Source: a virus
Direction: 5' to 3' (one strand)
IMG/VR virus record: IMGVR_UViG_3300045988_152944
Length of the DNA: 64,000 nt
Part shown: positions 9,512-44,156 of the stretch, piece after piece
Position numbering within the stretch: position 1 is the first letter of the stretch
Layout: each line of letters begins with the position of its first letter
The notes under the pieces: model-generated
The model's input: the letters and a program-made list of their open reading frames with translations, nothing else
The model's database searches: none
What the model was told of the DNA's origin: nothing
Translations under genes and position numbers: made by a program

Positions 9512-10777
9512 TTATGCTACGGTGAAATGCCACTTGTTCGCTTTGTCGCAAGCTGCAGCATTATCTTTGTAATATACGTTATACGACTTAGCCTCATAGC
9601 CATTCGCACCTTCTACATCCACAGTAATGTGGGTAAATGCGCTGAATGCTTCTGCGTTCAGTCCGTTAACGTCTTTGATTGAATTGATAGTTCTCGGTGC
9701 AGGGACAGCTATGATAACACGCATGTCACCAACAGCCTCTTGAGCATCGCCCGTATTGCCCGCTGAGATTGCTCCATTTCTCTTACCAGCCAAACCTCTG
9801 ATAATCGCACTCGTGGGCGTGCCTTCTTTAGATTTGACACCACCCCAGAAACTGTTTCTATAACCAGTAATAGCACTCGAAGCAGCGCTCTTTGTGCCAG
9901 CCGCAATTTTACCAGCTACGCCCTCAGTCGCACCAAGGTTGTTTTTAGGATCGGCACCGGCCGTGTGTGTAGCAACAACACTGACCTTATAACTGGTACT
10001 GTCACCAACTGTAAACTGAGCAAACGAACCCGTTTCTGTAGTAGCCGTATGCGAATCTGTATCGCTGACCTCATAGGTCGCTGTAATACCCGTGTCTGGA
10101 CCATATTGATAGCTACCTTTGTTAAAAGCCACTGAGTACGCAGGAGTGAATTCGCTACCAACCTCCTTTGCGCCGGCACCGGTTAAACTAATAGACACTG
10201 ACGGTTGGTTTACTGTAGGATTATTGTTAGCTTTTGCGAGCGCTCCTTTTAAGAATTCTTCTACAGACTTACCACTTGCGGGCAGCACAACCGAACCGGA
10301 TGCACCAGGAGCATAAATACCAAACGCTGTGGTTGCTGTGATATCATCTTTAAAATATACATTGCCTGCGTCGTAATTGCCATCCATGGCTTCCCAGTTG
10401 GTCTCGCCGCGTACATATGCAGTATACTGATATTTGCCACCAACCAACGCTTCCCTGATGATCGCAATGTCACCTTTAACAGGCTCTGCAATTTCAGCAA
10501 GCGCTGCCGCTTTGTCACCACCCAACGCGATGTCTTTCTGATAAACATCGGTAGTATGCAAATTTTTGGTAGCATCACCGATTGCTTTTTCGACGGCTGC
10601 CAAATCTACAAATGAAACGGTAATTTCGCTCCAAGTTTTGGTGCCATCGCCAACTTTGAAAATGTGTAAATCGGTATCATAACCAACTTCACCTTTCTTC
10701 AAAACAAGCTTGGAAGCAGCCCAATTGGTGCTGGTGTCATTACGTAAAATTAAAGTAATACGTATTTGTTTCTCCAT
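9512..10777 (-). CDS. tail fibre-like protein (421 aa)
   Basis: N-terminal TNW..KKGE..KVGDGTKTW anchor. Its ATG lies inside the 3' tail of the IscB ORF and has no obvious RBS. Confidence 0.55.
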   Translation of the reverse strand: MEKQIRITLILRNDTSTNWAASKLVLKKGEVGYDTDLHIFKVGDGTKTWSEITVSFVDLAAVEKAIGDATKNLHTTDVYQKDIALGGDKAAALAEIAEPVKGDIAIIREALVGGKYQYTAYVRGETNWEAMDGNYDAGNVYFKDDITATTAFGIYAPGASGSVVLPASGKSVEEFLKGALAKANNNPTVNQPSVSISLTGAGAKEVGSEFTPAYSVAFNKGSYQYGPDTGITATYEVSDTDSHTATTETGSFAQFTVGDSTSYKVSVVATHTAGADPKNNLGATEGVAGKIAAGTKSAASSAITGYRNSFWGGVKSKEGTPTSAIIRGLAGKRNGAISAGNTGDAQEAVGDMRVIIAVPAPRTINSIKDVNGLNAEAFSAFTHITVDVEGANGYEAKSYNVYYKDNAAACDKANKWHFTVA

Positions 10778-12054
10778 AAAATTTTCGGCAAAGGCCCCGC
10801 ATCCCCTTCAGGGGTGTGGGGGAATTGCCTCCTCCTTTCTATTAGTTTTGTTGAATTGTGTCTAATCCTTTTAAGGTTCTTATAACTTATTGAACCATTG
10901 TTTACCTTTTCTCCGTCTAAATTTCTGATATCTAAAAATCCTGATTTGCGTCTACCAAAAATCACATATTGTTTATTTTGATATTCTACCGTATCAAATA
11001 AGTCAAACCCAAAAACGTTGCCAATTAGTTGATTATTCTTTTTATATCCACCCTTTGAAAAATTATTTTTATGGATTTGTCTACTCTGCCTTCTAACACA
11101 CTTTTGATAAATATAATAATCTAAAGACTTCGCCTTTGGATTACCACTTATACACCGAGCATCTATGTAGTGTGCTTTCGGCAGATTATTTTCAATACGA
11201 GTGTTTTTAGTTATATAGCCATATGTTTCGTGGACATTTGAATATAACGCACATAATCTGTCAAATAGCGTCTTACACATAATCCCCATAAACGCAGCAT
11301 CTCGATAACTTTTACCACGTTTGAACTTTAATTCAACTTCGCCCTTGTGATAAGCTTTATGACAAGTTTCGCACAAGGTAATTAAATTATTCGGTGCATT
11401 GCCACCTGCTTTACGACTTTCAATATGATGTACATTTAATACATTATCTTTTGATTTACCGTGGCAACATTGGCATTCGTGGTGATCGCGGAATAATACA
11501 TAGGCTCTCACATTCCAGAAACCTAATTGCTCGCCCTGTTGATATTCTTTTCCCGATATTTCGGGATTGTTTATCTTCTGGATATCGAATTGAGCGGTTT
11601 CGACAATAAGTTTAGTTATCGGTAAAATCGCATACAAGCGTTTTATAACTTGAATATGCGAATTTATCTTTTGTTCAACACTTGGAGCAAGCCATCCTTT
11701 GTGTTTTGAATAAACACGATTGTTAAATCTTGCAGGGCGATATCTCAACCGGTTTCTTCTCGTTCTTCTTGCTTCTCTACGAGATGATAGTTTATTTACA
11801 ATATCATTACGCAATTCGACATCAGCTTCATATAGCACTTGTTTGTCCGTTGTGGCAGAAACACCAATATGCTTACTTCCGACATCAATTCCAAGATTCA
11901 CTTCTTGTGTTTGATTTTCACAATCGAATAATAACTGAATTGTAAACGGTTCGTATTTTACTATTTTTGCTTTATTTTGTTTTAGCAATTTTCTTGCTTT
12001 TGCTTCTTTGCAAGGCATTAATGGTTTGCCTTGTTTGTTTAATACATATACCAT
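10750..12054 (-). CDS. iscB: IscB RNA-guided nuclease (434 aa)
   Basis: N-terminal PLMP motif (GKPLMPC), RuvC-I GIDVGSKHIG, Arg-rich bridge helix RREARRTRRNRLRYR, HNH (VHHIESRKAGGNAPNNLITLCETCH), RuvC-III AHYIDA. Confidence 0.85.
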   Translation of the reverse strand: MVYVLNKQGKPLMPCKEAKARKLLKQNKAKIVKYEPFTIQLLFDCENQTQEVNLGIDVGSKHIGVSATTDKQVLYEADVELRNDIVNKLSSRREARRTRRNRLRYRPARFNNRVYSKHKGWLAPSVEQKINSHIQVIKRLYAILPITKLIVETAQFDIQKINNPEISGKEYQQGEQLGFWNVRAYVLFRDHHECQCCHGKSKDNVLNVHHIESRKAGGNAPNNLITLCETCHKAYHKGEVELKFKRGKSYRDAAFMGIMCKTLFDRLCALYSNVHETYGYITKNTRIENNLPKAHYIDARCISGNPKAKSLDYYIYQKCVRRQSRQIHKNNFSKGGYKKNNQLIGNVFGFDLFDTVEYQNKQYVIFGRRKSGFLDIRNLDGEKVNNGSISYKNLKRIRHNSTKLIERRRQFPHTPEGDAGPLPKILWRNKYVLL

Positions 12055-12320
12055 TGCTTTTATAGCCTCCTATATGTTAGAGTGGTTACTCCACGACAAT
12101 GTTATTCAAAGGTTTTACGTATGCAACACTGTTCCTACCCATCAGAACTGTTTAATCACATACCGCAGAGCGTAAGACTGGAGAGTACATCCTACAGTGC
12201 CTATATATTCTTTGATAACGTAGTGCTCGAAGCACTGAGTCTGATCAACTAGTGAGCTTGAAGCCCACGCCTATTTATGGGCTGGGTAGTTGACAAAAAC
12301 TCCTTTTGAAAATAAATTCG
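12055..12320 (-). ncRNA. candidate IscB omega-RNA (guide plus scaffold)
   Basis: 266-nt ORF-free, relatively GC-rich spacer directly 5' of iscB on the same strand, where IscB omega-RNAs are encoded. Local stems are present, e.g. AGTGCT-TCG-AGCACT. The fold was not verified. Confidence 0.55.
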
Positions 12321-29745: not shown

Positions 29746-30981
29746 TTATTCCTGAATGTCTAAGTTAATACTATGATGCAACACGTTGTCACCATCAAAG
29801 ATTAACAGGGTTTGGCCTGGTTTGCCAAACAGGCGTTTGCTAAACGCATATTGATCTACGCCAACAATACTGCCATTTACATAAACTTTGAAATTGTTGA
29901 ACGTTTTAAGTTTTTCACAATGATAATGGCCGACAAAAGCATAATCTACCACTATCCCAGTGTAAGCAGTCATATTTTGGAAAAGCGTTGTAATATTATC
30001 ATGGTGCCCATGAACAAACACGCCGGTCTTCCCGTTTTGGAAATTAATCATACCAATTTCCTGATCGAGAACATTTTCCTCAAAAGTAATGTTCGTGTCT
30101 CTCAACCTTTCTTTTAAATAGAAAGTAATAAGCTTACCATAATTTTCAGCCTCAATACTTTCTTTAAGAGAAGGCGTCATTCGTGAATGATTATCGGTAA
30201 CAGAATAATATCTCACATCTGGTGCAGCAGCCTGCAGTTGATTGAGCGTGTCTGCAATAAGCTCAGATGCAACCATGATTTGTTCAACAACATCGATTTG
30301 TTGCTCCAATCTTGCACTTGTGTGAATATGCCCTTGGCAATAATCACCAAGTCCTAAAATATTTAATCTTTGAACATTGTTGTTTACACAATATCTAATT
30401 ACATCTTGGATTAGTTTATTTACTCTTTTGCGAGCAATAGTAATATTATATTTATTATAATAATTATCAATCTCTACCCCAATATGTAAGTCCGACAACA
30501 TTAAAACCGCTTCTGTGTAAGTATTTCCAACCGGATGATACACAACTTTGGGAAGTTTGGTAATATCCACAACCAACTCTTTCATCAAAGCTTTAAAATC
30601 ATCCAAACGCGCTTCTTCTCTCATCATTCTTCGATAAGCATTTAAAGAATCGCGTGTTTTTACTTGTTGTTTATACAAATCTTGAATTTGTCCTTGGATT
30701 TCGTCTTCCATTTCTTGGGTAGACAAATCTTCAACTGTTTTATTAGATAATAATTTTGAATTTCGAGGTAATTCGCCGGTGCGTGCAAGTTTTTGCTTTA
30801 CCCAACAACGATAGTTTTCACCCGTTGTAAAAGGCATTCCTAACATCTCGTTCAGGGCACTCCAGTTTTTTACTCCCAATGGTAACTCTTTATGGGTTAC
30901 CCCTATTTCAAACAAATCGTCCTCAGTTAAGTTTTCTTCATTAAACTTTTTGAGGAACTCTAAAAAGTCGGTTTGAGTCAT
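29746..30981 (-). CDS. calcineurin-like metallophosphoesterase (411 aa)
   Basis: Motifs LSDLHIG, LGDYCQG, VTDNHS, VHGHHD and VGHYH in canonical order. Confidence 0.7.
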   Translation of the reverse strand: MTQTDFLEFLKKFNEENLTEDDLFEIGVTHKELPLGVKNWSALNEMLGMPFTTGENYRCWVKQKLARTGELPRNSKLLSNKTVEDLSTQEMEDEIQGQIQDLYKQQVKTRDSLNAYRRMMREEARLDDFKALMKELVVDITKLPKVVYHPVGNTYTEAVLMLSDLHIGVEIDNYYNKYNITIARKRVNKLIQDVIRYCVNNNVQRLNILGLGDYCQGHIHTSARLEQQIDVVEQIMVASELIADTLNQLQAAAPDVRYYSVTDNHSRMTPSLKESIEAENYGKLITFYLKERLRDTNITFEENVLDQEIGMINFQNGKTGVFVHGHHDNITTLFQNMTAYTGIVVDYAFVGHYHCEKLKTFNNFKVYVNGSIVGVDQYAFSKRLFGKPGQTLLIFDGDNVLHHSINLDIQE

Positions 30982-30999
30982 GTATTTCTCCTTTTGCTT

Positions 31000-31230
31000 C
31001 TAGATAGTTCATTGAACTTCTCACGACTAAAGTCGTGAGATTCTTGGGAACTTCCGACCACTGCCGGAATATTTACCAAGCTAACCCCGTCGTCCCAACG
31101 GTTGTTTATATTTAGGCTAATTGTTTAAGCCCTTCATTAAGAATATTTATCGCCGCATTAACATCTCTATCATGATGAGTGTGACAAACGGGGCAATCCC
31201 ATTCTCTGACTTTTAGGTCTTTTGTCTCAG
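31000..31230 (-). ncRNA. candidate TnpB omega/reRNA (overlaps the tnpB 3' end; bounds approximate)
   Basis: Downstream of the stop: perfect hairpin CTCACGAC-TTTA-GTCGTGAG (31020-31039) plus TTCCG..CGGAA and CCGT..ACGG stems, in the position expected for the right-end guide RNA scaffold. Confidence 0.5.
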
Positions 31231-32209
31231 TGTTCTTATATCCACAAACGCTACAAGTCTGCGAACTCGGGAAGAATTTGTCAACTTTAATAACCATTCT
31301 TCCATACCAACGTGCTTTATACTCCAACTCTCTTACAAATTCTGACCAAGAAACATCATTGATTGCTTGCGCGAGTTTGTGATTTTTAACCATATTTTTT
31401 ATTTGCAAATCTTCAAGACAAATCACATCATTTTCTCGAATGATAACTGTTGAGAGTTTTTGTAGAAAATCTTTACGTTGATTTGAAATTTTCTCATGCA
31501 ATCTCGCGACTTTTATTCTTGCTTTGTTACGGTTAGAACCATCTTTTGATTTTCGAGATAATTCTTTTTGTAACTTTGCAAGTTTATTTAACGAGTTTTT
31601 GAGATATTTCGGATTATTGACAACCTCACCATCGCTCGTGATACAAAACTCTTTAAGACCCAGGTCTATGCCGACCACATTGTTTGTAATCGGCAATGGT
31701 TGTATATCCACATCCACACAGCACAACGAAACGTAGTATTTTCCGCTGGGCTCTTGTGAAACCGTCGCGTTTACTATTCTACCTTGTGGTACCAACTTGT
31801 TTTTCGTTTTTACCAATCCAAGTTTTGGAAGTTGAATGTAACCGCCAAGATATTTTATGGTGCCATTCCTATATTTAGAGTTGTAAGAATATTTATGAGT
31901 TTTCTTACTTTTGAAATTTGGAAACCCAGCGTGTTCTTTAAAGAACTTTTTATAAGCATTGTCTAAATCTTTGAGAGAAGATTGAAGAGCAGTGGAATCA
32001 ACTTCTGTAAGCCATTCAAGTTCAGCTTTTAGTTTAGTCATCGCTTTCGAACATTGAACGTAAGTTATATTTTTCTTTTCGGTTTTATATAATTCAATCT
32101 TTTCAGCAAGATACTTGTTATATACAAATCGGCAACAACCAAATGTTTTTGCAATTATTTCTTTCTGCTTTTCGTTTGGATATATACGATATTTATAAGA
32201 TTTTTCCAC
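31112..32209 (-). CDS. tnpB: TnpB RNA-guided endonuclease (365 aa)
   Basis: N-terminus YKYRIYPN..Q, RuvC D (GIDLG) and E (VICLEDL), zinc finger [25 protein letters not shown] start with AAAGGAGG RBS. Confidence 0.9.
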
Positions 32210-32301
32210 ACTCTTTACCTCCTTTTCTGATTTAATAAAACTATTATTTTACTCTTTCCATAGAATATTAGAACACCGTACCTTTCGACATCTACCACAA
32301 A

Positions 32302-33054
32302 TCAGATTTTTTTGGCCTGTCGAGAACGCCGTTTTAACTCGTTTTTACGCTGTGTTAATTCGGTTTTGTAACAATCGGGGCATAAATCCTTATATTTCTT
32401 TTTCCCCACGATAAACCTCTTACCACACGACCTACAAGTGCCACTATATTCGCTAAATTGGAAATCTGTCTTAACCGTTCCTTTATTATCAAAAAAATTT
32501 AATTCGATTACGTTCCCGTAAACAGGTTTCCCGTCTCTGAAATAAGCTTTCTGGTGCATAGTATATAAGTTGTATTGGGCATTCCACTTGTCCATTTGTA
32601 AAACTCTATATGGGCGACGTTGGCGGCGGGTACCTTTAATTAACCCTTCCCAAACTTCTTGGCTACAAAAAAATCCATCTGCTCGTCCAAAAGAGCGTTG
32701 GCACTCAACTAAAATTCGCAAAAACTCTTTGTATTCTTTGTCTACATCTAAACCTTCAATAAAATTATATTCTTTTGCTGTTAGCCCATAAATATATTTT
32801 CTATTAAAGCCATAATGTAACGCCTTCTCCCAAAATTTATCAAAATACTCACGAGTTTCTTCTTCACTAAAACACCCTACAACTTGTGGCGACTCTAGTT
32901 CCACCCAAATCTTATAGGCGGTCTCTTTAGTCACCCCTTGCTCTTGCCAATATTGACAAAGGTGTGTTTGTTCGGTGTTAATACTACGTCGTGTGTTATA
33001 ATATCCTTGTTTTAACACTGCTTCTGAATTTTTATTCCAGTCCAAAATTAACAT
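32302..33054 (-). CDS. hypothetical protein with a C-terminal zinc ribbon (250 aa)
   Basis: AAAGGAG RBS; CRSCGK..CPDC. Confidence 0.55.
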   Translation of the reverse strand: MLILDWNKNSEAVLKQGYYNTRRSINTEQTHLCQYWQEQGVTKETAYKIWVELESPQVVGCFSEEETREYFDKFWEKALHYGFNRKYIYGLTAKEYNFIEGLDVDKEYKEFLRILVECQRSFGRADGFFCSQEVWEGLIKGTRRQRRPYRVLQMDKWNAQYNLYTMHQKAYFRDGKPVYGNVIELNFFDNKGTVKTDFQFSEYSGTCRSCGKRFIVGKKKYKDLCPDCYKTELTQRKNELKRRSRQAKKI

Positions 33055-34870: not shown

Positions 34871-35190
34871 CTTTACACCCTCGGTTTCCCGATATTTCTT
34901 AGGGGAGTAGATTATCTCATCAACTCATTTCCTGTTACCGTAGTGAGCTGCTCAGCGCTTTGAATGTTGGAGTTTCACCAACACCCTACTCTACTTGCTT
35001 ACTTTCAAACATATTTCTTGTTTGATACGCGTTCGATAATCGTTACACTTTCCTTATTAAAGGCTTAGCACGGTGTTCCCTACGCAGGTTCACCGTTAGC
35101 AGGATTTCATCCCACACCTTGGATTTCCAAGTTCACTGAGTTATCATTCGATTGTCACCAACCGACGGACCCTGTATACGTTAAGTCACT
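34871..35190 (-). other. group I-like self-splicing intron, ORF-less (320 nt)
   Basis: Stop-filled insert. The 5' exon ends in U (35191) and the intron ends in G (34871). Exon CCGAU can pair with intron GUCGG about 25 nt in (P1). Other stems: UCGG-GAAA-CCGA tetraloop hairpin, CUUGG-AAAU-CCAAG, GUUGG..CCAAC. Confidence 0.6.
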
Positions 35191-36825
35191 ATCGGAGTGT
35201 CGTAATGTTGAAGTATCATATATACTGTAAATGATTCCACTCTTAATATATTGATACCAATAGTCCATATCTTCGGACGATACTACTTTACAAGGGTTGT
35301 GTTCGTGCGAATCAATCATCGGGCTTCGGCACAGGTCAACACAACCCACACTTCGCTGCCTCCAGAAATTTGAATACACTTGGTCAGGCCCAATTAACCC
35401 CACCGGTTCCAACCCAAGCGCCGATTGACACTGTGCCACGGGATCAGAAATCATAAAACTATAATTTCCTCTCACCCATATCTTACCAATCTTCGCCTTG
35501 TTTATCGTCTCAGCAATATTGCGATATATTTTCTTCTGTACATGAGCGTCTTCCAACATTATCGGGTTTTTAATAATAGCCCTCAACGCCGTGCTTTGCG
35601 CCCCATTATACAATTCTTTAAAACTGACTTGTTCACCCTTGCAACCCAACATATACAACATTGTATACAATTGGTCACCTGAACAAATCTTTTTAATCCA
35701 ATCAATTGTCGGTTGAATCAATTCCAGAATATCATCCTTATTGATATCCAACACTTGCAGATATTGATAATTGGCCAGCACATATTCGTCATCGTACTTT
35801 TTATTATATCTCGCAACTCCCCACTGAATACCAGCCGCATCTACATACTTTTGATATTCATACCAAGATACATAATATTTATACATCTTGAATTGAGATT
35901 CACTCAATATAACGTCAATATCCTCCAACCTATGTGAAATTCCCCACCGGTCACGAATTGAATCAATACCGTGTTCAGCTCCAAACTCTCGAAAATCAAA
36001 CGGGACCAAACACCCCTTCACAAAAACGCTACGAACAACGAACGACGACGGCGTATACGATAAATTCATATCTTCTGCCCACAGTGCCGCAAACTTAGGA
36101 TCGACCAATCCCTGTCCATCAGCGCAATTCAACTCGATGTCCATAGTTCTTTCTTTAATCTGCTTCTTCCCGGTCTCAGGATTAGGGCAAATCCAATCCA
36201 CCTGTTGGTCCTTCACCACATTAAAGAAATCCTTAACAACACACACTCTCGGCGTCCTCACCCACATAACACTCGAAAACGCCAACGCAAAATACGCATG
36301 ATATTTCGCCAAATTCATTTCTGAAATCTTGGTGTCCAACCCGCACATCAGATTTTTATACAGGGTGTCATAAAGAGCTTCATTAATAAAGGTAATAGTG
36401 TTGCGCCTCATTTGTCCCGAACCACAACAAAACCTCACATAATGAATACCGTTAACGTCAAATCCGTTCTTGGCCAATTCTTTATATTCTTTTTTGGTCA
36501 CGACTTCAACGTTAACAATATCTTTAACAAACAACGCATCTGTCAAAAACCGATTAAGAATACCAGCTTCTTTGGTTCGTCCTTCTCTCTTCGCAGCTCT
36601 GATAGCGCGACGAAATTGTTGGACATCGTTAAAAATCTCTCGATGACTTCTGGTATCATTATAATATTTTCTGATTTGTTGAAAAACCAGATTATCACCA
36701 ATTGATACCAGTGCCCCATCGCGAGCTGCCTTAGATTTTGAATAATTAACTATATTTAAGTTGTTCTCTACAATAAAACTAGATTTAAGTTTAAAAACTT
36801 GATATAGGTTTTGTAAATTAGGCAC
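35191..36825 (-). CDS. YonO-like single-subunit RNA polymerase, exon 1
   Basis: Ends ...CRSPMIDSHEHNPCKVV...STLRHSD, resembling the R.P...H...P / S.DxDGD region of YonO and eukaryotic RdRP-type two-barrel polymerases. GTG start 2 nt after the upstream stop. Confidence 0.6.
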
Positions 36826-43517: not shown

Positions 43518-44009
43518 ATGTCTATTAAAATCAATCAAATTGCAGCAACCGCCAACATCATCAACGCTCTCGATGCAATGAAAGCAGACGAGAACATCAG
43601 CCTCGGCATCGAAGAAATCGAGTTTCCTGATGGAAGCAAAGAGAAATTCTATTACAACGGCGAGTCCGACAAACAAGCAGCCGTGCACTTCGCACAGATT
43701 TGCATCGATGTTTGCGCCGGCGACAGCGACAAAGCCAAACGTATGATGGCTTCGTGTTTCAAACTTCTCACTAAAGGCTACAATGTCGACGAAATTGTCC
43801 CGTCTGCGGAAAGCGAAATCAACACCGAAACTTATATTGATTATAAGAAAGGTGTCTTGCTCACGCCGTACGCGTCGGTTGTCGCGTCTCTCACCGAGGA
43901 TGAACTCAAAGCAACAAAGGGCAAAAAGAATCCCCTTACCAAATCACTCTTGCTCGAAAGATCGAGAACTGATTGTTTAGAAGACGCTCTTAAATATTAC
44001 GAGAGCTGA
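43518..44009 (+). CDS. hypothetical early protein (163 aa)
   Basis: AAAGGAGG RBS. Confidence 0.65.
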   Translation: MSIKINQIAATANIINALDAMKADENISLGIEEIEFPDGSKEKFYYNGESDKQAAVHFAQICIDVCAGDSDKAKRMMASCFKLLTKGYNVDEIVPSAESEINTETYIDYKKGVLLTPYASVVASLTEDELKATKGKKNPLTKSLLLERSRTDCLEDALKYYES

Positions 44010-44156
44010 ACCCCGCAAGGCCCGCACGAAAGTGTGAACGGCGCAAGCCCGTTGCCCTCTTAGGAGGGTGGCGCTCATGGTGTTCATAATGGCATCATCT
44101 TCGTAAAATAAAAATCTTGCTAATCGAAGACTAATGGCATAGAAAGGAGAATCATT

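What the first reader, a model, noticed from the sequence alone, without database searches (positions are those of the whole stretch)
31000..32300. Second, different OMEGA nuclease: a solo TnpB element with a right-end hairpin scaffold
The 365-aa ORF has the TnpB hallmarks: YKYRIYP N-terminus, RuvC D/E/D ([21 protein letters not shown]) and a CxxC..CxxC finger. It uses a GTG start with a strong RBS. The ~110 nt downstream hold a perfect CTCACGAC-TTTA-GTCGTGAG hairpin and two more stems. This is consistent with a reRNA/omega-RNA scaffold ending just before the RBS of the metallophosphoesterase gene. The element fills the gap between two phage genes without disrupting them. Having both IscB and TnpB with intact motifs in one viral genome is uncommon.
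Basis: partly seen in the sequence, partly recalled or inferred. Interest (0 to 1): 0.65.

Follow-up and report, generated by a model that had tools for sequence, protein, structure and literature searches.

The report
Stranded TnpB guide-RNA nuclease in phage
A gut-phage genome carries an intact RNA-guided nuclease gene (TnpB) and its guide RNA, but the cassette is a transposon remnant that has lost the parts needed to jump; it is a known kind of element and, unusually, still looks to be under selection.

Summary
Window 31112-32209 (minus strand) encodes a 365-aa TnpB. It has all three Pfam TnpB domains and matches ISDra2 TnpB structures at E~5e-103. The RuvC residues D182/E266/D349 and the CxxC..CxxC finger are intact. 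The 100-nt 3' UTR plus the last codons form an omega-RNA scaffold. A covariation model finds it at the 3' end of tnpB in 57 loci, with 95% of cells paired and 25 of 32 pairs showing changes on both sides.

The interpretation needs correcting. This is not a complete solo IS. Full relatives have TTTAT, a left-end hairpin, tnpA and then tnpB. Here TTTAT abuts the last ~10 nt of the tnpA tail, so the left end and tnpA are gone.

Sibling phages about 96% identical lack the cassette. In its place they carry 77 bp with a TTGACA-N17-TAGTAT promoter-like site, so the cassette replaced DNA.

A diverged sibling, L265, shares the same junctions. Between the two copies tnpB dN/dS is 0.09 and the omega-RNA UTR is 100/100 identical. 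That implies selection after immobilisation.

The guide matches element-free siblings next to AGTAT, a possible weak TAM. Homing or competition between co-infecting phages is therefore plausible but untested. Several OMEGA nucleases per genome are common in this phage group.

The parts
32235..32239 (-). TTTAT pentamer at the left junction. This is the TAM of this element family. It is the last phage sequence shared with element-free siblings.
   Evidence: Homology with empty-site phages ends at 32235. TTTAT lies 16-18 nt upstream of the left-end hairpin in 8 independent family members.
32210..32234 (-). 25-nt leader (TAAATCAGAAAAGGAGGTAAAGAGT) carrying the tnpB RBS GGAGG (32222-32218). It is homologous to the 3' tail of tnpA in full-length relatives. 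No left-end hairpin is present.
   Evidence: Alignment of upstream regions of 60+ homologous loci. Intact tnpA ORFs end here in L014, L016, L021-24 and L026-31. No left-end hairpin motif occurs in the window at up to 3 mismatches.
31112..32209 (-). tnpB, 365 aa, GTG start. RuvC residues D182/E266/D349; zinc finger C319/C322/C339/C342.
   Evidence: phmmer against ISDra2 TnpB structures 8exa/8bf8/8h1j gives E = 5.5e-103 over residues 3-361, with the catalytic D/E/D aligned to D191/E278/D361.
31012..31145 (-). omega-RNA (reRNA) scaffold. It overlaps the last ~11 codons of tnpB and the whole 100-nt 3' UTR. It comprises hairpin CCGTTG/CGACGG (31101-31087), a nested hairpin CTTGG..TTCCGGC-AGTG-GTCGGAA..CCAAG (31080-31043), the terminal hairpin CTCACGAC-TTTA-GTCGTGAG (31039-31020), and a long-range helix GGGCT (31133-31129) with AGTTC (31018-31014). 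The right end is ...GTTCAA (31012).
   Evidence: RNAalifold; CM R1 hit at 157 bits; pair counts. Similarity among elements stops at 31012-31009. The UTR is 100/100 identical in L265.
30996..31011 (-). Predicted 16-nt guide TGAACTATCTAGAAGC, the sequence immediately 3' of the right end. It runs up to the RBS of the downstream gene.
   Evidence: Position by analogy with ISDra2 and Sulfolobus TnpB (PMC10097598, PMC11043419). Unique in the window at up to 3 mismatches. The same sequence in element-free siblings is preceded by AGTAT.
29746..30981 (-). Downstream phage gene, 411 aa: an SbcD/Mre11-like exonuclease with RBS AAAGGAG at 30994-30988. It has lost the promoter-like site that siblings have.
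   Evidence: PHROG 284 'exonuclease', E = 3e-58. No Pfam hit. Siblings carry TTGACA-N17-TAGTAT upstream. No sigma-70-like site is found on the minus strand inside the cassette.
32302..33054 (-). Upstream phage gene, 250 aa, function unknown. tnpB probably depends on read-through from it.
   Evidence: The conserved AU-rich hairpin after this gene in siblings (-8 to -12 kcal/mol) is cut in half in the window.

Best explanation
Window 31012-32234 (minus strand) is a 1.22-kb, 5'-truncated remnant of an ISDra2-like IS200/IS605 insertion sequence, sitting in a large (139 kb) human-gut phage of a probable Clostridia host.

Shown:
- tnpB is intact.
- Its omega-RNA is intact and the right end is precise.
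- The left-end hairpin and tnpA are missing. The family TAM TTTAT is fused directly to what is the tail of tnpA in full-length relatives.
- Relative to element-free siblings, the cassette replaces 77 bp of intergenic DNA that includes a promoter-like site.
- The same truncated cassette with the same junctions exists in a sibling phage about 4% diverged. tnpB and especially the omega-RNA have been conserved over that divergence.

Inferred:
- The cassette can no longer transpose, because it has no left end and no TnpA. It is transcribed by read-through from the upstream phage gene, and the downstream exonuclease gene now depends on the same transcript.
- TnpB processes the 3' part of its own mRNA into an omega-RNA whose 16-nt guide is TGAACTATCTAGAAGC.
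- The RNP cuts DNA that carries this sequence next to a TAM. The phage's own copy is protected because it is preceded by the right-end motif TTCAA.
- Element-free siblings carry the same 16-17 nt next to AGTAT, which keeps TAM positions -3 to -1. The most likely current role is therefore a selfish homing or marker-exclusion nuclease. In a co-infected cell it would cut element-free genomes, and recombination with the element-bearing genome would copy the cassette in.
- The most economical origin is insertion of a full element followed by a microhomology deletion (TTTAT / TATAT) that removed the left end, tnpA and the 77 bp.
For: Identity:
- Pfam and PHROG hits.
- ISDra2 structures at E~5e-103 with D/E/D aligned.

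omega-RNA:
-.

Boundaries:
- Empty-site siblings L081-86, L090-93, L095, L098, L099 and L103.
- Similarity to other elements ends at 31012-31009 and begins at about 32234.

Truncation:
- Intact Y1 tnpA sits immediately upstream of tnpB in 11 or more relatives.
- Left-end hairpin CCCGTGAC-TTTA-GTCATGGG-ATGAAT with TTTAT 16-18 nt upstream in 8 independent loci.
- No such hairpin, no tnpA and no second tnpB in the window.

Selection after truncation:
- L265 has identical junctions.
- tnpB dN/dS is 0.09, with dS 0.21 against 0.15-0.17 in the neighbouring genes.
- The 3' UTR is 100/100 identical.
- dN/dS is 0.05-0.07 against the other tnpA-less phage copies.

No own promoter:
-.

Target in siblings:
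- ...GATAGTAT|TGAACTATCTAGAAGCA in L082, L090, L091 and L103.
- In Sulfolobus TnpB7, TAM positions -5 and -4 are relaxed, -3 and -1 matter most, and the transposon-end motif TTCAC is not cut (PMC11043419).
- Guide position 2 is one of only 3 tri-allelic sites in 2 kb among the element-free siblings. This is a post hoc observation.
Against: - No RNA or cleavage data exist.
- The cognate target TTTAT plus guide was not found in IMG/VR.
- The sibling target has a TAM mismatched at two of five positions. Tolerance is extrapolated from one distant archaeal TnpB.
- Gene conversion from other tnpB copies in these phages could mimic purifying selection. The segment 31401-31700 is only 89% identical between the window and L265, against 95-99% in the flanks.
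- The order of events (insertion site, one deletion or two) cannot be resolved.
- Only 64 kb of the 139-kb genome was visible, so a tnpA elsewhere cannot be excluded. Without a left end it could not mobilise this copy anyway.
Confidence: 0.72

Rival explanations
1. One reading: a complete, still-mobile solo (IS1341-type) TnpB element that inserted cleanly between two phage genes next to its TAM.
For: TTTAT lies exactly at the left junction and the right end is precise. Two other loci (L002, L011) show the same 'TTTAT + 25 nt + tnpB' layout. That could mean this short form is itself a unit that spreads.
Against: - There is no left-end hairpin, whereas solo relatives keep one 45-115 nt upstream of tnpB (L003, L007, L010, L019, L041, L049).
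- The 25-nt leader is homologous to the tnpA tail.
- The sequence after the right end is not what follows TTTAT in empty sites; 77 bp are missing.
- No contig has TTTAT joined to the guide.
Confidence: 0.05
2. A functionless relic: a recently stranded transposon fragment that merely has not yet decayed. Its conservation would reflect recent arrival or gene conversion.
For: - It has no transposase, no left end and no cognate TTTAT+guide target anywhere searched.
- Related copies do decay. L011 has lost the terminal hairpin, L003/4/6/50 carry an in-frame TAG, and L012 and L005 hold tnpA pseudogene remnants.
Against: - Two orthologous truncated copies have diverged as much as their flanking phage genes (dS 0.21). 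Yet dN/dS is 0.09, the ORF is intact in both, and there are 0 of 100 changes in the omega-RNA UTR where roughly 15-20 are expected at neutrality.
- All catalytic residues are kept.
Confidence: 0.15
3. A domesticated cassette serving the phage rather than itself. One version: TnpB binding or processing of the omega-RNA leader controls expression of the downstream exonuclease gene, which lost its own promoter. Another version: a nuclease used against host or other competitor DNA.
For: - The cassette replaced the exonuclease promoter-like site, so that gene's mRNA must now begin with or pass through the omega-RNA, and the guide abuts its RBS.
- There is strong constraint on the RNA.
- tnpA has been lost repeatedly and independently in the phage-borne clade while tnpB is kept.
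- Phage-encoded TnpB derivatives (TldR) are known regulators (PMC10705468).
Against: - The RuvC triad is intact, unlike TldR.
- The guide is simply the flanking sequence, as in any IS605 element.
- No second target was found in the window.
- A different TnpB element sits at the same intergenic spot in L094 without removing the promoter. This argues for a landing hotspot rather than a designed regulatory module.
Confidence: 0.08

Closest known systems
ISDra2 TnpB / reRNA (Deinococcus radiodurans IS200/IS605; PDB 8EXA, 8BF8, 8H1J)
   Same: Full-length sequence homology: E = 5.5e-103, query residues 3-361 against chain residues 5-373. Same domain order. The D/E/D triad aligns to D191/E278/D361, and the CxxC..CxxC finger is kept. 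The guide RNA scaffold overlaps the 3' end of tnpB and the right end. In full-length relatives tnpA lies upstream on the same strand.
   Different: The TAM is TTTAT rather than TTGAT (ISDra2 TAM from my own knowledge). This protein is 365 aa against 408 aa. This copy lacks the left end and tnpA and sits in a phage genome. No activity data exist.
Transposon homing by IS605-family TnpB (Meers et al. 2023, PMC10055086) and 'non-restorative homing' into co-infecting phages or plasmids (review PMC13565253)
   Same: A nuclease plus a guide fixed to the sequence flanking the right end. Self-protection comes from a right-end motif that differs from the TAM. An element-free allele with a matching target exists in the same phage population.
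   Different: There is no TnpA, so there is nothing to 'restore'. The target in siblings has AGTAT, not the cognate TTTAT. Conversion would also replace 77 bp, including a promoter-like site. All of this is untested.
Free-standing homing endonucleases of T4-like phages (Seg/Mob; intronless homing, marker exclusion)
   Same: A nuclease gene wedged between conserved phage genes, polymorphic among close relatives. It is predicted to cut the allele that lacks it.
   Different: Target recognition here would be RNA-guided (RuvC/TnpB), not protein-based (GIY-YIG/HNH). Resemblance is in proposed function only; it is not a family member.
TldR (nuclease-dead, phage- or host-domesticated TnpB repressors; PMC10705468)
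   Same: A TnpB derivative kept in a phage without a transposase, with a conserved guide RNA.
   Different: TldR has lost the RuvC catalytic residues and its guide targets a promoter elsewhere. Here the triad is intact and the guide is the adjacent flank.
Rfam RF02841 Ref70 (Enterococcus sRNA 70)
   Same: A weak similarity of the 3' UTR (30995-31107, 26.9 bits, E = 0.04). This sRNA may itself be an omega-RNA of a Firmicute TnpB.
   Different: The score is far below the gathering score of 115. No Rfam family covers this omega-RNA at threshold.

Membership tests
TnpB (IS200/IS605-family RNA-guided nuclease, OMEGA) | Domain architecture HTH_OrfB_IS605 + OrfB_IS605 (RuvC) + zinc-finger TNB domain | tested here: met
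   All three Pfam models score above their curated cut-offs: 76.5, 102.5 and 91 bits. PHROG 506, E = 8e-142.
TnpB (IS200/IS605-family RNA-guided nuclease, OMEGA) | Intact RuvC D-E-D catalytic triad | tested here: met
   D182, E266 and D349 align with D191, E278 and D361 of ISDra2 TnpB in the phmmer alignment.
TnpB (IS200/IS605-family RNA-guided nuclease, OMEGA) | Conserved structured omega-RNA/reRNA overlapping the tnpB 3' end and ending at the right end | tested here: met
   57 CM matches, all at tnpB 3' ends. 94.8% of cells paired and 25 of 32 pairs with changes on both sides, against shuffled and slid controls. The right-end boundary is sharp.
TnpB (IS200/IS605-family RNA-guided nuclease, OMEGA) | RNA-guided, TAM-dependent dsDNA cleavage | not testable with these tools
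   Needs a plasmid interference or in vitro cleavage assay.
Complete IS200/IS605 insertion sequence (IS605- or IS1341-type) | Subterminal left-end hairpin about 16-18 nt downstream of the TAM | tested here: not met
   Present in L003, L007, L010, L012, L019, L021, L023 and L024. Absent here: only 25 nt lie between TTTAT and the start codon, and the motif has no match in the window at up to 3 mismatches.
Complete IS200/IS605 insertion sequence (IS605- or IS1341-type) | Y1 transposase tnpA (IS605-type only) | tested here: not met
   tblastn of the L022 TnpA against the window gives a best E of 0.15. Only the last ~10 nt of the tnpA tail remain.
Complete IS200/IS605 insertion sequence (IS605- or IS1341-type) | Right-end subterminal hairpin and conserved terminal motif | tested here: met
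   CTCACGAC-TTTA-GTCGTGAG followed by AAGTTCAA. This is conserved, with compensatory changes, in 14 close loci.
Complete IS200/IS605 insertion sequence (IS605- or IS1341-type) | Simple insertion 3' of the TAM: the sequence after the right end equals the sequence after the TAM in empty sites | tested here: not met
   Empty sites read TTTAT|AGTTGG...(77 bp)...AGTAT|TGAACTATC. The window reads TTTAT|cassette|TGAACTATC. No TTTAT+guide junction was found in IMG/VR.
TldR (nuclease-dead TnpB-like repressor) | Loss of RuvC catalytic residues | tested here: not met
   The triad is intact.
IStron (group I intron fused to an IS605/IS607 element) | Group I intron at the 5' end of the element | tested here: not met
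   No intron family appears in the Rfam scans of the window or the region. The upstream part is only 25 nt long.

The most novel reading that the evidence does not exclude
An immobilised TnpB-omegaRNA cassette is maintained in a gut-phage lineage as an RNA-guided 'gene drive' or marker-exclusion weapon against sibling phages. It would cut the element-free allele at a weak TAM (AGTAT) next to a perfect 16-17-nt match and be copied in by recombination. The A/G/C polymorphism at guide position 2 in element-free phages would be the footprint of escape. The same intergenic spot being occupied by a second, different TnpB element in another sibling (L094) would then reflect competing drives.
Probability: 0.22. 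Interest if true: 0.7.

Novelty: new member of a known kind. Interest (0 to 1): 0.4.

Why it matters
TnpB/omega-RNA elements are the ancestors of Cas12 and are usually discussed as partners of a transposase. This locus offers three things together. It is a transposase-less, left-end-less copy whose nuclease and guide RNA are still under purifying selection. Natural element-plus and element-minus alleles sit in about 96%-identical phage genomes. A second TnpB family has landed in the same intergenic region.

That makes it a compact natural test case for whether TnpB can persist purely as an RNA-guided homing or competition nuclease among co-infecting phages. It also yields a compact (365 aa) ISDra2-like nuclease with a TTTAT TAM. 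If the homing idea fails, the locus is an ordinary stranded IS remnant.

Tried and rejected
- Megablast of 5 kb around the locus against GenBank phages found no relative, only a 32-bp chance hit.
- I searched IMG/VR for the predicted cognate empty site TTTAT+guide in two registers and for the same right-end junction. All returned 0 hits.
- I compared the flanks of 80 TnpB-homologue loci with the window, to use the window as an empty site for them. Nothing matched except the IscB/HEARO region of L050. The neighbours' proteins are also absent from those loci.
- Rfam at gathering and at a permissive E-value has no family for this RNA, only a weak Ref70 hit.
- I looked for tnpA, a left-end hairpin, a second tnpB copy or a second guide match in the window and found none.
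- The sigma-70 promoter and terminator scan found nothing on the minus strand inside the cassette. Counts in the region are at or below the shuffled expectation.
- I considered that the L094 element and the window element are the same insertion. I rejected this because they are 54% identical in protein and about 60% in DNA, with different TAMs (TT[G/A]AA against TTTAT) and different ends.
- I considered TnpA-catalysed adjacent deletions at TAT-ending pentamers (TTTAT|, TATAT|, AGTAT|) as the source of both junctions. The idea is attractive but cannot be tested here, so it stays a speculation.
- I did not run structure prediction. Solved-structure homology at E~1e-103 made it unnecessary.
Full report
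**1. What is in the sequence**

The ORF is real but lies on the minus strand: window 31112..32209, 365 aa, GTG start. GGAGG sits 8 nt upstream of the start.

Pfam finds HTH_OrfB_IS605, OrfB_IS605 and Cas12f1-like_TNB, all above their curated cut-offs. PHROG 506 'transposase' matches at E = 8e-142.

Against solved structures the protein matches ISDra2 TnpB (8EXA/8BF8/8H1J) at E = 5.5e-103 over residues 3-361. In that alignment D182, E266 and D349 sit opposite the catalytic D191, E278 and D361. The two CxxC pairs (C319/C322 and C339/C342) are kept.

**2. The RNA**

There are 100 nt between the stop codon (31114-31112) and the point where all similarity to other elements stops (31012-31009). This stretch holds three hairpins, including the perfect CTCACGAC-TTTA-GTCGTGAG at 31039-31020. 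RNAalifold adds a long-range helix between the last codons of tnpB and the AGTTC just before the end. The single sequence folds with z = -3.4.

A covariance model built from the window and 9 relatives finds 57 matches in 689 kb of fetched DNA. Every match lies at the 3' end of a tnpB gene on its strand, and there is exactly one in the window.

On those matches 94.8% of cells form standard pairs. Shuffles give 76% and slid partners give 34-48%. 25 of 32 pairs show changes on both sides. The caveat is that the alignment is fitted to the model.

Rfam has no family for this RNA at threshold. The only hit is a weak one to Enterococcus sRNA Ref70. This is an omega-RNA/reRNA scaffold. Its last variable position across loci places the right end at ...GTTCAA|N. 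The predicted 16-nt guide is therefore TGAACTATCTAGAAGC (31011-30996), ending just before the RBS AAAGGAG of the next gene.

**3. Boundaries from element-free relatives**

The downstream gene is a 411-aa exonuclease (PHROG 284). It retrieved six IMG/VR contigs and nine metagenome contigs that are about 96% identical to the window on both sides but lack tnpB.

In those contigs, window 32234..31012 is replaced by 77 bp:

TTTAT|AGTTGGTTTTTTGCTCTTCATTAGAGAATTGGGATGTCACTAAAATTTGACAAAAAATAGAGATTGTGATAGTAT|TGAACTATC...

That 77-bp segment holds a TTGACA-N17-TAGTAT promoter-like site. The site is conserved in a relative only 72% identical (L087/L097). The segment also holds the 3' arm of a weak conserved hairpin.

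So the cassette did not simply drop into a gap. It replaced DNA that includes the likely promoter of the exonuclease gene. No sigma-70-like site is found on the minus strand inside the cassette. By inference, tnpB and the exonuclease gene are read from the upstream operon.

**4. It is a truncated IS605-type element, not a complete solo element**

Upstream of tnpB, many homologous loci carry an intact Y1 transposase gene ending ...EEQIRKYIKNQK*. These include L014, L016, L021-24 and L026-31. The window's 25-nt leader TAAATCAGAAAAGGAGG is homologous to that tnpA tail.

Full-length and solo relatives have a left-end hairpin, CCCGTGAC-TTTA-GTCATGGG-ATGAAT, which resembles the right-end hairpin. 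TTTAT lies 16-18 nt upstream of it in eight independent insertions. TTTAT is therefore the family TAM.

In the window TTTAT directly abuts the tnpA tail. There is no left-end hairpin, and no tnpA and no second tnpB in the 64 kb. L002 and L011 show the same TTTAT-plus-tail layout.

The other members of the 84-87% clade are all on 85-150-kb phage contigs. They have lost tnpA through different internal deletions: L003/4/6/50, L007-9, L010, L005 and L012.

The tnpA tail contains TATAT followed by T. A deletion between TTTAT and TATAT explains the left junction. This is inference.

Two histories fit the data:
- Insertion after AGTAT, followed by one deletion of about 600 bp that removed the 77 bp, the left end and tnpA.
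- Insertion after TTTAT, followed by two deletions.

I could not discriminate between them. No intermediate was found.

**5. Selection**

The exact protein occurs on three assemblies. The window corresponds to ENA ERZ28620746 scaffold_22, 139,393 bp.

A 97%-identical TnpB (P0001) lies in L265 in the same gene context with identical junctions. Between the window and L265:
- tnpB has 41.5 synonymous and 16.5 non-synonymous differences, giving dN/dS 0.09 and dS 0.21.
- The flanking genes have dS 0.15-0.17.
- The 100-nt omega-RNA UTR has no change at all.

Against the other tnpA-less phage copies dN/dS is 0.05-0.07.

The nuclease and its RNA have therefore been kept intact after the element lost its ability to transpose. 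One caveat applies. The segment 31401-31700 is only 89% identical between the two copies, so exchange with other tnpB copies is possible.

**6. How it most likely works**

The following steps are inferred from the family's known biology (PMC10097598, PMC10055086):
- TnpB binds the scaffold carved from its own transcript.
- The guide is the 16 nt after the right end.
- DNA carrying a TAM plus that sequence is cut 15-21 bp from the TAM.

The phage's own copy is preceded by TTCAA, the right-end motif. The cognate TTTAT+guide target was not found anywhere searched.

Element-free siblings with the G allele (L082, L090, L091, L103) carry a perfect 17-nt match preceded by AGTAT. This differs from TTTAT only at positions -5 and -4. 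In the one TnpB where this has been mapped (Sulfolobus TnpB7):
- positions -5 and -4 are the most permissive;
- positions -3 and -1 are the most critical;
- the transposon-end motif is not cut (PMC11043419).

A homing or marker-exclusion role in co-infections is therefore plausible. The literature calls this 'non-restorative homing' (PMC13565253). It is not shown here.

One post hoc observation fits the idea. Guide position 2 is A, G or C among the element-free phages. It is one of only three tri-allelic sites in 2 kb, and the only variable site in the intergenic region within the closest subgroup. The same nucleotide is also position 3 of a TTNAA motif, so other explanations exist.

**7. A landing hotspot and a crowded genome**

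In L094 the exonuclease is 99% identical to the window's. A different TnpB element occupies the same intergenic region. It is 54% identical in protein and has its own left-end hairpin, a right end ...GGGTAGTTCAC and a TAM of TT[G/A]AA. It is inserted after AGTATTAAA and leaves the promoter-like site in place.

At least nine IMG/VR phage contigs carry two or three tnpB loci. L050 carries a homologue of the window's IscB/HEARO region 1.5 kb from its tnpB.

The window's IscB is real: 10750-12054 on the minus strand, with Pfam RRXRR+HNH and HEARO RNA at 12082-12294. Its co-occurrence with TnpB is not unusual in this phage group.

**8. Comparison and verdict**

The locus is a member of the TnpB/OMEGA family; all testable defining features are met. 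It fails the membership test for a complete IS200/IS605 element because it has no left end, no tnpA and is not a simple insertion. It is neither a TldR nor an IStron.

The closest bacterial homologues are 74% identical, in Clostridiaceae/Lachnospiraceae gut MAGs. No close GenBank phage exists.

Novelty: a new member of a known kind. The useful twist is an immobilised but selected TnpB-omegaRNA cassette with natural plus and minus alleles. Interest is moderate.

Noticed in passing
window 10750-12294 (-): An IscB element. HEARO omega-RNA lies at 12082-12294 (133 bits, full length). Directly after it comes a 434-aa ORF (10750-12054) with Pfam RRXRR and HNH. L050 holds an 81.6%-identical copy 1.5 kb upstream of its own tnpB.
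   Followed up: partly
window 44008-44087 (+): A twister-sister self-cleaving ribozyme match: RF02681, 64 bits against a gathering score of 34, full length. Its context was not examined.
   Followed up: no
L094 1170-2487 (ERZ1026868 NODE-38), homologous to window ~31000: A sibling phage carries a different TnpB element in the same intergenic region: 370 aa, 54% identical, TAM TT[G/A]AA, own left-end hairpin, right end ...GGGTAGTTCAC. It leaves the promoter-like site intact. 12-13 bp of phage DNA after its right end are missing or replaced.
   Followed up: partly
element-free siblings L081-L099, position -29 from the exonuclease ATG (= window 31010): A tri-allelic site (A7/G3/C3), one of only 3 such sites in 2 kb. 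It lies exactly at the nucleotide next to the window's right-end junction. That is guide position 2, and also position 3 of a TTNAA motif that is the TAM of the second TnpB family. Cause unknown.
   Followed up: partly
window 32235-32252 vs L011 2945-2962: The 18 nt upstream of the cassette (TAAAATAATAGTTTTAT) match the 5' flank of the truncated element in L011 at 17 of 18 positions, although the flanking genes are unrelated. This may be chance in AT-rich DNA, an extended target preference or a shared history. It is unexplained.
   Followed up: partly
L003, L004, L006, L050: codon 46 of tnpB (locus ~3130): Four related phage contigs share an in-frame TAG in an otherwise intact tnpB that is 86% identical to the window's. 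This is either a shared pseudogene or a hint of TAG recoding in those phages.
   Followed up: no
window ~35155-36825 (-), from L089 gene 1: A 556-aa gene upstream in the same operon direction carries a precomputed Pfam hit to PF05183 (RdRP, eukaryotic-type RNA-dependent RNA polymerase fold). Such a fold is known from crAss-like phage virion RNA polymerases. It was not verified here.
   Followed up: no
IMG/VR contigs 3300045988_158589, _146834, _176183, _168342, _170129, _106360, _142143; 3300050336_000170; 3300011976_000001; 3300013753_000002: Large gut-phage contigs carry two or three tnpB loci each, of two subfamilies, sometimes in tandem (L056/L203). In the 84-87% clade tnpA has been deleted independently several times while tnpB and the omega-RNA persist.
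   Followed up: partly
window 30995-31107 (-): A weak similarity of the omega-RNA to Rfam Ref70 (Enterococcus sRNA 70; 26.9 bits, E = 0.04). That curated 'sRNA' may itself be a TnpB omega-RNA.
   Followed up: no
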